Below, one piece after another: positions 25,218 through 26,104 of a DNA stretch of 64,000 nucleotides. The position numbers were made by a program, and so were the translations under genes. Each line of letters opens with the position of its first letter. Within the stretch, counting starts at the first letter, position 1. This DNA comes from a virus (lineage: Duplodnaviria; Caudoviricetes), in IMG/VR virus record IMGVR_UViG_2791355159_000004, positions 10,229-74,228 of that record; one strand, 5' to 3'. The notes beneath the pieces were generated by a model. The model was not told where the DNA came from and did no database searches. It saw nothing but the letters and a program-made list of their open reading frames with translations.

Positions 25218-26104
25218 AAAAAAGCCCGCCTTACACGGGCATGAATTCGTTCAAGATGAAAGGGAAATCCAGAATGCCAGCCTAGCTGGCTTTGCCACCA
25301 TATAGCTTTTGCAACAGATAGATACTACGGGACACTTTTGCTCTCAACACAGCACGATACAGGTGTGGACACAAAAAAAAGCCCGTCACTCGAGGAGAGA
25401 TGACGGGCAACGTGGTAGATAGCGAGTTGCTTTTAGAATCCCACCCATGACACACGATTTATCTGGCTAGTCTACTCATAGTAACAACCGAGCTTCACTA
25501 TACAAGCGTAGCGGTTGATTAAATTAGCCATTACGCTGCAGAGACAAAAAAGCCCGCTCAGTGGCGGGCAAAGTGGTTCAGCACAGGATTAACCTGCAAA
25601 TCTCGTACAGCTTACGCGCAACATCCTGTATGCGTGTAGCCATTACAGGTTAGGAGTGTGTGAGGTCTTGCGATGTGGGAATGGTCCTACAAGTCATGAA
25701 GTTAGGATTGTTCTGGCAAGAGGAGTTGGCTTAAAAAAGCCCGCTCTATGGCGGGCAAGAAGACACAAATTCCAATGGGGAAAGCCATCGCACACAGCAA
25801 ATAATGTGCTTTCAAAGCATAGGCTACTGCCGCTACGTTGTTGTGAAATATAGCGTAGTAATTTTACTCGTCAGGATTATGTTAGTTGATGTATTGAAAA
25901 GAAAAAAGCCCGCGCATAGCGGGCCAACCAGCTTTATTTCATATTGTCTTGTCGTTATGGGTGCCACTGAATACCAGAGCAAAGAGGTTAACGGCGACAT
26001 AGCTGATAACTTTAGAGCAGCATCAAAAAAGCCAGCACGAGGCGGGCAGAGATGCTGTATAAAGTCTTTTTTAGCCTTCAGGCCATGTCTCTTTGGACAT
26101 TATG
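25218..26104 (-). ncRNA. Array 1: six tandem putative sRNA genes
   Basis: GCCC-type hairpin plus U-run terminators at 25218, 25373, 25546, 25733, 25902 and 26025, each with an upstream -10-like hexamer; no credible ORFs. Confidence 0.72.

What the first reader, a model, noticed from the sequence alone, without database searches (positions are those of the whole stretch)
25218..26104. Second sRNA array: six different units at the rex-equivalent locus between cI and OL
Seen: six minus-strand terminators of one type (GCCC...GGGC plus U6-8), 123-187 bp apart, each with a different body. Several have sigmaS-like -10 elements (CTACGCT, CTAACCT, CTATGCT). Established: in lambda this interval holds lysogen-expressed genes (rexAB). 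Inference: a modular array with a shared 3' Hfq handle and variable seeds, expressed during lysogeny.
Basis: partly seen in the sequence, partly recalled or inferred. Interest (0 to 1): 0.88.

Follow-up and report, generated by a model that had tools for sequence, protein, structure and literature searches.

The report
Shuffled small-RNA cassette array in prophage
Next to the repressor gene of a lambda-like Pantoea prophage lie six different, terminator-ended non-coding cassettes that related prophages carry in other combinations and orders; they are most likely small regulatory RNA genes, but nobody has yet shown that they are transcribed.

Summary
Six minus-strand Rho-independent terminators of one type (GCCCG...CGGGC plus U6-8) lie at 25218-26047, 123-187 bp apart, each after a different body. 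This is one of only three such clusters in the 4.96-Mb genome.

The units are discrete cassettes. Each recurs at about 80-97% identity in other Pantoea (pro)phages, with homology ending at the terminators. Ten related places with a cI homologue upstream of the cassettes hold nine different cassette line-ups; in eight of them nutL-like DNA follows. Unit D also lies beside tail-fibre genes.

No ORF that I read as a gene is conserved. Unit D alternates invariant promoter-like blocks with variable spacers ahead of a conserved ~95-nt body. The E family keeps one 5' motif and one 3' end around four different bodies.

Best reading (0.58): tandem, independently transcribed prophage sRNA genes (non-coding morons), shuffled by recombination at their shared terminators.

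Not shown: transcription, Hfq binding, sigma-S or RcsB control, or any target. No RNA run was informative. Only one consensus sigma-70 promoter was found. Fold z-scores are weak. The AgvB resemblance fails Rfam's threshold and a GcvB-pairing test.

This is a new variant of a known kind.

The parts
26025..26131 (-). Cassette A. It follows the stop of the PIN gene directly. Its terminator is 26025-26047, with an imperfect stem and a U6 tail. A -10-like CATAAT lies at 26104-26099. Inferred RNA about 69 nt.
   Evidence: The stretch 26118-26025 recurs at 91.6% identity downstream of unit D in L038/L042/L045, and as family u03 in L060. It is therefore a cassette in its own right, not merely the terminator of the cI operon.
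25902..26024 (-). Cassette B. Terminator 25902-25924. A -10-like TAACCT lies at 25990-25985. Inferred RNA about 78 nt. Its last 60 nt give a weak AgvB-like match.
   Evidence: Homologues occur in L047 and L048; TAACCT is kept in 3 of 3, and both relatives lack 5 nt in the C/A-rich stretch. The AgvB match scores 23.6 bits against a gathering score of 56. Pairing with GcvB R1 is no better than shuffles.
25733..25901 (-). Cassette C. Terminator 25733-25756. It has the only consensus-type sigma-70 promoter in the array (CTGACG, 16 nt, TATATT, at 25874..25847). Inferred RNA about 108 nt, with an invariant core ATTTGCTGTGTG.GATGGCTTTCCCCATT.
   Evidence: promoter scan; the -35 hexamer is kept in 6 of 6 distinct versions and a TA...T -10 in 5 of 6; 9 copies of the family; 83% identity to G000:C6:9948-10138.
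25546..25732 (-). Cassette D. Terminator 25546-25569. Conserved box 1 AACAATCCTAAC at 25712-25701. Box 2 TGTAGGACCATTCCCACA at 25691-25674. A -10-like TAACCT at 25652-25647. Conserved body of about 95 nt at 25640-25546.
   Evidence: 24 copies, 11 distinct; box 1 invariant in 12 of 12 columns, box 2 in 16 of 19, spacer in 4 of 20, -10 in 5 of 6, discriminator in 1 of 6, body in 57 of 71. Note that 26 body columns were fixed by the search pattern; 5 Pantoea genome contigs and 13 viral contigs; box 2 resembles the box upstream of the genome's own rprA, at the same distance.
25373..25545 (-). Cassette E. Long terminator 25373-25408 with a U8 tail. 5' motif CCGCTACGCTTG, which includes TACGCT at 25510-25505. 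Inferred RNA about 124 nt. Member of a family with fixed ends and exchangeable bodies.
   Evidence: ten distinct sequences lie upstream of the shared 3' end; nine also carry the 5' motif, and L057 is cut off by its contig start. I read them as four body types. The terminator stem shows a compensatory change (T-A to C-G) against the copy at window 60515-60548. Identity to G000:C6:9772-9974 is 87%.
25218..25372 (-). Cassette F. Terminator 25218-25240. Conserved GTATCTATC at 25325-25317, at the -35 position. A -10-like TATGGT at 25302-25297. Hairpin GCCAGC/GCTGGC. Inferred RNA about 73 nt.
   Evidence: 13 related sequences; the terminator pair C-G changes to U-A in 6 of 12; the upstream hairpin folds in 8 of 12, and two of those (L007, L010) carry compensatory stems (GTCAGC/GCTGAC, ATCAGC/GCTGAT).
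26132..28406 (-). The cI operon upstream of the array: cI (27693-28406), a 52-aa ORF (27525-27683), a phrog_19868 protein (26668-27384) and a PIN-domain protein (26132-26677).
24848..24917 (-). OL/PL: an inverted operator pair at 24875-24909 under two promoter-like sites (24917..24890 and 24876..24848).
   Evidence: CACCGC/GCGGTG half-sites lie at 24877 and 24902, matching those at OR (28420, 28443, 28472).
24995..25213 (+). A DUF2767 gene, convergent with the array, between cassette F and OL.
   Evidence: PF10965, E = 3e-23. It is also present in the relative seen in run X1.

Best explanation
The interval is a tandem array of six separate non-coding cassettes in a lambda-like Pantoea prophage. 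It sits at the accessory-gene hot spot between the end of the cI operon and OL/PL.

Each cassette most likely is a small-RNA gene: a short promoter region, a body of about 70-125 nt, and a Rho-independent terminator with a U6-8 tail of the kind that Hfq-dependent enterobacterial sRNAs carry. On this reading each is transcribed on its own, independently of cI control, so it could be made in the lysogen and act in trans on host or competing-phage RNAs.

The cassettes are gained, lost and reordered between phages by recombination at or beside their near-identical terminators, so related prophages carry different repertoires. In the E family the promoter motif and the 3' end stay fixed while the body between them is exchanged.

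Shown: the anatomy, the rarity in the genome, cassette boundaries at terminators, turnover between relatives, the lack of an ORF that I read as a gene, and block-wise conservation.

Inferred: transcription starts, expression in lysogeny, Hfq binding, trans action, and recombination at terminators as the mechanism of shuffling.
For: 1. Six terminators of one type are real and far from chance.

2. Homology blocks end at terminators.
- Window 25372-25571 (E) and 25733-25923 (C) lie next to each other, without D, at G000:C6:9772-10138.
- 25544-25762 (D) recurs alone in five other Pantoea genomes, G027, G016, G017, G066 and G070, twice in G016.

3. Line-ups differ. At 10 places with a cI homologue upstream, 8 of them with nutL-like DNA (7 with an N-like gene) downstream, I found 9 different line-ups:
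- A-B-C-D-E-F
- u06-C-E
- C-D-A-E'
- u22-u23-u24-A-E'
- u20-C-D-F-E
- B-C-D-F
- u16-B-C-D
- u21-E'
- D alone

4. A contig in run X1 keeps cI, phrog_19868, PIN and DUF2767 at about 88-95% identity but has other sequence in place of the array.

5. Cassettes are better conserved than the neighbouring repressor gene: C-D is 96.8% identical to L042 while cI is 77%.

6. D also lies in a different context, convergent with tail-fibre-type genes.

7. Conservation in D is block-wise, as in a promoter followed by an RNA.

8. Candidate -10 elements are kept in homologues: D 11 of 11, E 7 of 7, B 3 of 3, C 5 of 6. From the sequences listed I read F as 7 of 8.

9. Coding is unlikely. The 21-codon ATG ORF in D is kept in 0 of 10 other versions, and 1-nt indels lie within it. 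The longest ORFs in C and F lose their start or gain a stop.

10. Compensatory changes occur in the E and F terminators, the F hairpin and a hairpin in the E' body.

11. No Rfam family reaches threshold, so these units are not already catalogued there.
Against: - No transcript evidence at all. No RNA run was on record as holding the locus, and the two RNA runs laid gave 0 reads, which is no test.
- Only 1 of the 6 units has a consensus-type sigma-70 promoter. Promoter-like sites in 23000-28500 are at chance level (8 found, 7.0 +/- 2.7 expected). The other -10 candidates lack a recognisable -35.
- Predicted folds are not clearly more stable than shuffles (z from -0.4 to -1.9).
- Covariation is sparse. 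The consensus fold of the F family recovered only the terminator, and two F relatives break the upstream hairpin.
- D's body is too invariant to show covariation, and part of that invariance was imposed by my search pattern.
- No target stood out. Best pairings to translation-start regions are in the range of shuffled controls. There is no long antisense match in the genome.
- High identity between phages could reflect recent transfer rather than selection.
- A few short ORFs are kept in every compared member: in C and D a 13-codon TTG ORF in D, a GTG ORF in C and two antisense ORFs in C, and several in the small E (2 others) and B families. I read these as side effects of sequence conservation.
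Confidence: 0.58

Rival explanations
1. Stacked terminators or an insulator. The hairpins only make sure that transcription from the cI operon never reaches OL/PL and the early-left genes. On this reading the bodies are spacer DNA or leftovers of earlier accessory-gene insertions, with no transcription starts of their own.
For: - The array lies exactly between the cI operon and PL, on the cI strand.
- Canonical promoters are scarce.
- Fold z-scores are weak.
- No RNA data exist.
Against: - One or two terminators would be enough. Relatives with a single cassette exist (L035/L037).
- Bodies are conserved at 80-97% across phages whose cI is only about 77% identical.
- D shows invariant short blocks between variable spacers.
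- The same cassettes occur away from any cI operon, beside tail-fibre genes.
Confidence: 0.17
2. Selfish or structural cassettes. The units are small mobile non-coding DNA elements that spread by recombination at terminator-like palindromes. Their conserved blocks would be DNA sites, for example for recombination or for a DNA-binding protein, rather than parts of a trans-acting RNA.
For: - Every cassette is bounded by near-identical palindromic terminators.
- A 24-nt terminator identical to D's occurs in several unrelated Pantoea loci.
- The X1 relative carries D's terminator without D's body.
- Line-ups change quickly.
Against: - All cassettes in an array share one orientation, with the U-tail on the same strand. 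This fits transcription better than orientation-free recombination.
- The conservation pattern of D and E places a -10-like hexamer at a fixed distance ahead of the conserved or variable body.
- Compensatory changes preserve hairpins.
Confidence: 0.15
3. Very small protein genes. Each cassette would encode a short peptide, for example a type I toxin or a small membrane protein.
For: - A hydrophobic 37-codon TTG ORF runs through unit C (25815-25702).
- A few short ORFs persist across family members.
Against: - The C ORF runs through its own terminator. Two of five relatives (L022, L052) lack its TTG start, and the internal ATG reading stops after 5 codons in L022.
- D's ATG ORF is kept in 0 of 10 others, and 1-nt indels lie within it.
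- F's ATG ORF is kept in 0 of 7.
- I saw no Shine-Dalgarno-like sequence ahead of the two persistent ORFs I looked at. This was read by eye, not by a scan.
Confidence: 0.05

Closest known systems
Prophage-encoded anti-sRNAs AgvB and AsxR (EcOnc01-03) of E. coli O157:H7 (Tree et al. 2014, PMC4104026; I read passages and section 12)
   Same: - Short non-coding genes with Rho-independent terminators at accessory-gene insertion sites of lambdoid prophages.
- Related copies share a conserved 3' part and differ at the 5' part, as the E family does here.
- Unit B gives a weak AgvB-like alignment.
   Different: - The EHEC RNAs are 51-60 nt and lie as convergent pairs downstream of PR'. They are not arrays of up to six same-strand cassettes at the immunity region.
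- The AgvB model scores 23.6 bits against a threshold of 56.
- Unit B does not pair with this genome's GcvB R1 better than shuffles do (472 of 500 shuffles did as well).
- Their expression and Hfq binding were shown. Here neither is.
Pas sRNAs and STnc100 of pathogenic E. coli prophages (Zhu, Shabalina and Storz 2026, bioRxiv 10.64898/2026.05.13.724894; I read the abstract and sections 15 and 17)
   Same: - Prophage-borne sRNA genes with variable presence, copy number and neighbours, spread by recombination between related prophages.
- The window itself holds a full STnc100 match beside its Q gene.
   Different: - No sequence or Rfam relation to the six units.
- Those RNAs lie near Q, lysis or structural genes as single genes.
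- The units here were found only in Pantoea among the genomes searched.
Phage morons (promoter-gene-terminator units inserted between phage operons).
   Same: Autonomous units bounded by a terminator, variably present between otherwise similar phages, at the rex-equivalent site and beyond the tail-fibre genes.
   Different: Classic morons encode proteins and come singly. Here the cargo is non-coding and up to six different units are strung together.
The terminator that ends the lambda cI-rexA-rexB transcript before OL (recalled)
   Same: Same place and strand. The first hairpin after the PIN gene probably does this job for the cI operon.
   Different: A single terminator with no conserved, mobile body. 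It does not account for five further cassettes or for their presence elsewhere in phage genomes.

Membership tests
Hfq-dependent trans-acting enterobacterial sRNA genes | Rho-independent terminator with a run of six or more U at the 3' end | tested here: met
   All six units have one, with tails of 6-8.
Hfq-dependent trans-acting enterobacterial sRNA genes | Own transcription start giving a discrete 50-300-nt RNA | not testable with these tools
   No RNA run held the locus. There are only conserved -10-like hexamers and one consensus-type promoter.
Hfq-dependent trans-acting enterobacterial sRNA genes | Non-coding | tested here: met
   No ORF that I read as a gene. The longest ORFs in D, C and F lose their start or gain a stop, and 1-nt indels lie in D's body. 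A few short ORFs persist in every compared member of C, D, E and B. Very short peptides cannot be excluded.
Hfq-dependent trans-acting enterobacterial sRNA genes | Binds Hfq and pairs with target RNAs through a conserved seed | tested here: inconclusive
   Hfq binding cannot be tested here. Invariant cores exist in C and D, but predicted pairings are no better than shuffled controls.
AgvB (Rfam RF02702) / anti-sRNA group | Match to the family covariance model at or above its gathering score | tested here: not met
   Unit B scores 23.6 bits against 56. Units A and C-F gave no AgvB match up to E = 10.
AgvB (Rfam RF02702) / anti-sRNA group | 5' part complementary to the R1 seed of GcvB | tested here: not met
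   The genome's own GcvB was found at G000:C20:32551-32748. The best contiguous pairing of unit B is 7 nt, and 472 of 500 shuffles did as well.
AgvB (Rfam RF02702) / anti-sRNA group | Position as a convergent pair downstream of PR' (from passages of PMC4104026) | tested here: not met
   The array lies downstream of cI on one strand. The PR' region of this prophage (Q at 37176-37691) holds STnc100 instead.
Phage moron | Present or absent between otherwise similar phages, at operon boundaries | tested here: met
   Nine line-ups in ten places with a cI homologue upstream. The array is replaced in the X1 relative, which has the same flanking genes.
Phage moron | Own promoter and own terminator | tested here: inconclusive
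   The terminator is met. The promoter is only inferred.
Simple operon terminator or terminator stack | No conserved sequence beyond the hairpin and tail | tested here: not met
   The bodies of C, D, E and F are conserved across phages and contexts.

The most novel reading that the evidence does not exclude
Pantoea lambdoid prophages keep a dedicated, fast-evolving 'sRNA cassette rack'.

A near-identical terminator (GCCCGCC-loop-GCGGGC-U6) would serve three roles at once: the transcription stop, the Hfq-type 3' end, and the recombination linker. Through that linker, promoter-plus-RNA cassettes would be swapped, stacked and reordered between phages. This would be comparable in logic to an integron, but for regulatory RNAs and without a dedicated recombinase.

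Within one cassette type (E), a fixed promoter and a fixed 3' end would frame exchangeable bodies. A lysogen's set of phage-made regulators could then be re-dealt at each recombination. The rack sits beside the repressor and candidate exclusion genes, so it would be expressed in lysogeny and could tune the host or disarm rival phages.
Probability: 0.3. Interest if true: 0.8.

Novelty: new variant of a known kind. Interest (0 to 1): 0.62.

Why it matters
Prophage-encoded sRNAs are known mostly as single genes or pairs in pathogenic E. coli and Salmonella.

If these cassettes are transcribed, a plant- and insect-associated genus carries arrays of up to six different phage sRNA genes at the lysogeny control region. 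I counted 29 unit families among 88 terminator-bounded units. Four of those units, in three families, are tRNA-linked RtT repeats rather than array cassettes, and four of the single-member families are only 40-43 nt long. Line-ups change between close relatives.

Three things would follow:
- A natural system for studying how regulatory RNAs are exchanged and how new seeds arise between a fixed promoter and a fixed 3' end.
- A set of candidate lysogenic-conversion or anti-phage regulators.
- A simple sequence signature (same-strand terminator clusters beside cI) for finding such arrays in other genera.

If they are not transcribed, the array is still a clear case of rapid cassette turnover at a phage recombination hot spot.

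Tried and rejected
- Known families. Rfam at gathering thresholds on the whole window gave only a tRNA and STnc100, neither in the array. Permissive thresholds on 24300-26700 gave only sub-threshold hits: AgvB 23.6 bits, and terminator-driven Trp_leader, RyhB, rseX and anti-hemB matches. Fourteen related loci gave only RtT in L042.

- Public annotated collections. No match in the phage collection (near and distant modes) or in complete E. coli genomes (near mode).

- AgvB-like function of unit B. Rejected.

- Expression. No RNA holder was listed. Laying runs X11 and X22 gave 0 reads, which is no test.

- Targets. No long antisense complementarity of the bodies anywhere in the genome beyond 13-18-nt chance-level hits (E >= 0.25). 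Best pairings with 5765 crudely called translation-start regions were within or just above four shuffled controls per unit. The largest excess was unit C, 21.4 against 18.4 at most. I regard this as inconclusive.

- Structure. Single-sequence folds are not significant. The consensus fold of 12 F-type sequences found only the terminator. A hairpin in unit C that looked compensatory against the C6 copy is broken in L052, so I dropped it.

- A TGT-N12-ACA dyad in D's box 2 was considered as an Ogr/Delta-type site (recalled). I dropped it because my own count puts its centre near -42, not -55.

- Supplements are closed. Supplementary Table S2 of PMC6749038 (P. ananatis sRNA list) may hold relatives of these units, and I could not see it.

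- Literature searches turned up no paper describing tandem sRNA arrays in a prophage immunity region. This holds only for the library searched.
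Full report
**1. Observation**

The interval was read on both strands. On the minus strand six hairpins of the form GCCCG...CGGGC are each followed by 6-8 U.
- The + strand pattern AAAAAAGCCCG (at most 1 mismatch) starts at 25218, 25375, 25546, 25733, 25902 and 26025. The window has 16 matches against 1.72 expected, and 0 of 100 shuffles reached 16.
- The built-in consensus scan found 4 of the 6. A looser finder of my own found all six, at 26025-26047, 25902-25924, 25733-25756, 25546-25569, 25373-25408 and 25218-25240.
- In the whole 4.96-Mb assembly, 51 terminators fit the strict form, and this is the only place with two or more within 400 bp.
- The bodies are unrelated to one another. 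Hits between different units covered only the terminator.

**2. Setting**

The element is a lambda-like prophage of a Pantoea species. The genus comes from the record titles of genomes that hold unit D.

On the minus strand the order is:
- cI (27693-28406; S24 peptidase plus HTH)
- a 52-aa ORF
- a phrog_19868 protein
- a PIN-domain protein that ends at 26132
- the array

Cro and a CII-like gene diverge from cI on the + strand.

OR has the inverted arms 28416-28436 and 28461-28481. A similar operator pair lies at 24875-24909, under two promoter-like sites on the minus strand. The half-sites CACCGC/GCGGTG lie at 24877 and 24902, and at 28420, 28443 and 28472.

A convergent DUF2767 gene (24995-25213, + strand) sits between cassette F and OL.

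**3. The units are cassettes**

BLAST of the 1-kb interval against 61 relatives gave matches in 15 genomes including the window's own. All were in the genus: 14 of 36 other Pantoea genomes, and 0 of 24 genomes of other families of the order. Against all 75 species genomes of the genus, 13 matched at E <= 1e-5.

In a sample of 400 other genomes of the family, none matched at E <= 1e-8. That sample covered 177 other genera and included 3 genomes of the genus. Only two candidates per genome were scored.

The matches are unit-sized and end at terminators:
- 25372-25571 (E) and 25733-25923 (C) lie side by side, without D, in a second prophage of the same genome (C6:9772-10138, 87% and 83% identity).
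- 25544-25762 (D) recurs alone at 80-90% identity in five other species genomes, G027, G016, G017, G066 and G070, twice in G016.

An exact degenerate pattern from D's body found 5 Pantoea genome contigs and 13 IMG/VR viral contigs. Patterns from F, E and C found 8, 9 and 7 viral contigs.

**4. Census**

I ran my terminator finder over the window and 41 fetched loci. It listed 31 arrays (3 or more same-strand terminators with gaps of 260 nt or less) and 88 inter-terminator units, which clustered into 29 families. Two of the listed arrays in L042 are RtT repeats and do not belong here.

I examined the flanks of 23 arrays or places:
- 10 have a cI homologue within 3 kb upstream.
- 7 have an N-like gene just downstream.
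- 8 have nutL-like DNA with a boxA-like CGCTCTTTAACA just downstream.

Those ten places hold nine different line-ups:

| Place | Line-up |
|---|---|
| window | A-B-C-D-E-F |
| C6 / L061 | u06-C-E |
| L038/42/45 | C-D-A-E' |
| L060 | u22-u23-u24-A-E' |
| L052 | u20-C-D-F-E |
| L047/36 | B-C-D-F |
| L048 | u16-B-C-D |
| L058 | u21-E' |
| L035/37 | D alone |

Three points follow from this table:
- Cassette A, which in the window follows the PIN stop, lies after D or u24 elsewhere. It is a cassette, not just the operon's terminator.
- The order F-E in L052 is the reverse of the window's E-F.
- Cassettes are far more alike than the neighbouring repressor gene: C-D is 96.8% identical to L042 while cI is 77%.

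A 45.8-kb contig in run X1 (probably DNA) keeps DUF2767, PIN, phrog_19868 and cI at roughly 88-95% identity. Between PIN and DUF2767 it has only D's terminator, 568 unrelated letters and F's terminator.

D also occurs, paired with family u01, convergent with genes of the size and order of tail-fibre assembly, tail-fibre and tip-attachment proteins. That is the setting of the window's other array, beside the tail-fibre assembly gene at 60067-60516.

**5. What a cassette looks like inside**

*Unit D.* 24 copies give 11 distinct versions. The order is: a terminator from whatever lies upstream, a variable linker, box 1, a variable stretch, box 2, a spacer, a -10-like hexamer, a discriminator, then a body of about 95 nt up to its own terminator. 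Conservation by segment:

| Segment | Invariant columns |
|---|---|
| Box 1, AACAATCCTAAC | 12 of 12 |
| Box 2, TGT..GA.CATTCCCACAT | 16 of 19 |
| 20-nt spacer | 4 of 20 |
| -10-like TA[AG]CCT | 5 of 6 |
| 6-nt discriminator | 1 of 6 |
| Body to terminator | 57 of 71 |

Caveat: 26 body columns were fixed by the pattern that retrieved 18 of the loci. The boxes and the -10 were not selected for.

*Unit C.* It has the one consensus-type promoter in the array (CTGACG, 16 nt, TATATT, at 25874..25847). The -35 is kept in 6 of 6 distinct versions and a TA...T -10 in 5 of 6. It also has an invariant core ATTTGCTGTGTG.GATGGCTTTCCCCATT.

*E family.* The 5' motif CCGCT(T)ACGCTTG and a 3' end of about 40 nt (CTACCACGTTGCCCG.CATCTCTCCTCGAGTG..GGGC plus tail) are shared by ten distinct sequences. 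Nine also carry the 5' motif, and L057 is cut off by its contig start. I read their middles as four unrelated body types. Variation begins a few bases after the TACGCT hexamer, where a transcript would start.

*F family.* It keeps GTATCTATC at the -35 position, a TA..GT hexamer (7 of 8 close relatives, my reading of the sequences), a hairpin and a conserved 3' stretch.

**6. Coding or not**

- The 21-codon ATG ORF in D is kept in 0 of 10 other versions, and two 1-nt indels lie within the body.
- The hydrophobic 37-codon ORF in C runs through its own terminator. Two of five relatives (L022, L052) lack its TTG start, and the internal ATG reading stops after 5 codons in L022.
- F's ATG ORF is kept in 0 of 7.
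- A few short ORFs persist in every compared member, in C, D, E and B. The clearest are a 13-codon TTG ORF in D, a GTG ORF in C and two antisense ORFs in C. They lie in invariant sequence. I saw no ribosome-binding motif ahead of the two I looked at, by eye.

I take the cassettes to be non-coding, although very short peptides cannot be excluded.

**7. Structure**

Compensatory changes that keep hairpins:
- E's terminator, T-A to C-G against the copy at 60515-60548.
- F's terminator, C-G to U-A in 6 of 12.
- F's upstream hairpin, GCCAGC/GCTGGC against GTCAGC/GCTGAC and ATCAGC/GCTGAT.
- A hairpin in the E' body, by my reading.

Against this:
- Single-sequence fold z-scores are only -0.4 to -1.9.
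- The consensus fold of the F family recovered the terminator alone.
- Two F relatives break the hairpin.
- A hairpin I proposed in C is broken in L052.

**8. Function: what could and could not be tested**

- No RNA run on record holds the locus, and the two RNA runs laid gave no reads, which is no test. Transcription is therefore unproven.
- Unit B's last 60 nt align to AgvB at 23.6 bits (threshold 56). Its C/A-rich stretch does not pair with the R1 region of this genome's GcvB better than shuffles do.
- No body has long antisense complementarity elsewhere in the genome.
- Best pairings with 5765 crudely called translation-start regions are in the range of shuffled controls.
- One lead. D's box 2 ends 35 nt before the predicted start. 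It reads TAGGACCATTCCCA in the window and TAAGAGCATTCCCA in several relatives. The genome's own rprA has TAAGAGGATTCTTA ending 36 nt before the RNA start. That this box in rprA is the RcsB site is recalled from E. coli work, not tested here. It makes RcsB control of D a concrete prediction.

**9. Comparison with what is known**

- Prophage-encoded sRNAs are established in EHEC. There are 55 candidates in pathogenicity islands, and the anti-sRNAs AgvB and AsxR have a conserved 3' part and variable 5' ends. They lie as convergent pairs downstream of PR' (PMC4104026, passages and section 12).
- They are also established in EPEC, as the Pas sRNAs, which vary in copy number and neighbours and are linked to STnc100 (bioRxiv 10.64898/2026.05.13.724894, abstract and sections 15 and 17).
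- A 2025 review lists single phage sRNAs (PMC12197685, passages).
- In four full-text searches I found no description of tandem arrays of different sRNA-like cassettes at a prophage immunity region.
- The P. ananatis sRNA catalogue (PMC6749038, passages) does not use the word 'phage' at all (0 occurrences in the main text).

I therefore file this as a new variant of a known kind, not as a member of AgvB or any other named family.

**10. Verdict**

That the cassettes are independently transcribed, Hfq-type sRNA genes is the best explanation (about 0.58), but it rests on anatomy and comparative patterns only.

Rivals:
- A pure terminator stack (0.17).
- Non-transcribed mobile cassettes (0.15).
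- Tiny protein genes (0.05).

Noticed in passing
window 60515-62760 (minus strand): A second and larger run of same-strand terminators, convergent with the tail-fibre assembly gene (60067-60516, PF02413). It holds an E-type cassette with its own body (60515-60680), a u01 cassette (the family that pairs with D in other phages), two copies of family u05, and three copies of a GCCCCGTCGCCGGGGC-type terminator.
   Followed up: partly
window 37946-38121 (+) and 24320-24447 (-): A full STnc100 match (59.3 bits, threshold 47) lies between the Q antiterminator gene (37176-37691) and the holin gene (38423-38680). A weaker STnc100-like match (30.7 bits) lies about 400 nt downstream of the predicted PL. 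No N-like gene was found within 3 kb downstream of the array, although relatives have boxA/nutL plus an N-like gene there.
   Followed up: partly
G000:C6:9775-10138 (locus L022 4776-5239): A second prophage in the same genome has its own array (u06-C-E) between a cI homologue (85% over 143 aa) and a nutL/N-like region. One cell therefore carries two overlapping cassette sets.
   Followed up: partly
window 26132-27384 (-): A phrog_19868 protein (238 aa, no Pfam hit) and a PIN-domain protein (181 aa) overlap by 10 nt in the rex-equivalent position. They are a candidate toxin-antitoxin or exclusion pair. Relatives carry other genes in this slot.
   Followed up: no
window 28416-28481 and 24875-24909: The operator half-sites (..ATCACCGC.. 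/ ..GCGGTGAT..) look very like those of phage lambda itself (recalled), in a Pantoea prophage.
   Followed up: no
window 22822-23580 (-): A 252-aa early-left gene matches phrog_887, named 'queuine tRNA-ribosyltransferase' (E = 3e-95), with no Pfam hit. It may be a DNA or tRNA base-exchange enzyme.
   Followed up: no
run X1, record 1 (45.8-kb contig) laid on window 24900-28450: A relative with the same cI, phrog_19868, PIN and DUF2767 genes lacks the 52-aa ORF region (it skips 27494-27703). It carries a different array of about 630 nt, bounded by terminators identical to D's and F's.
   Followed up: partly
L042 11258-11758: Tandem RtT RNA repeats (two Rfam hits of 46-47 bits) lie in a viral contig. 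My terminator census picked them up as arrays, but they are unrelated to the cassettes.
   Followed up: no
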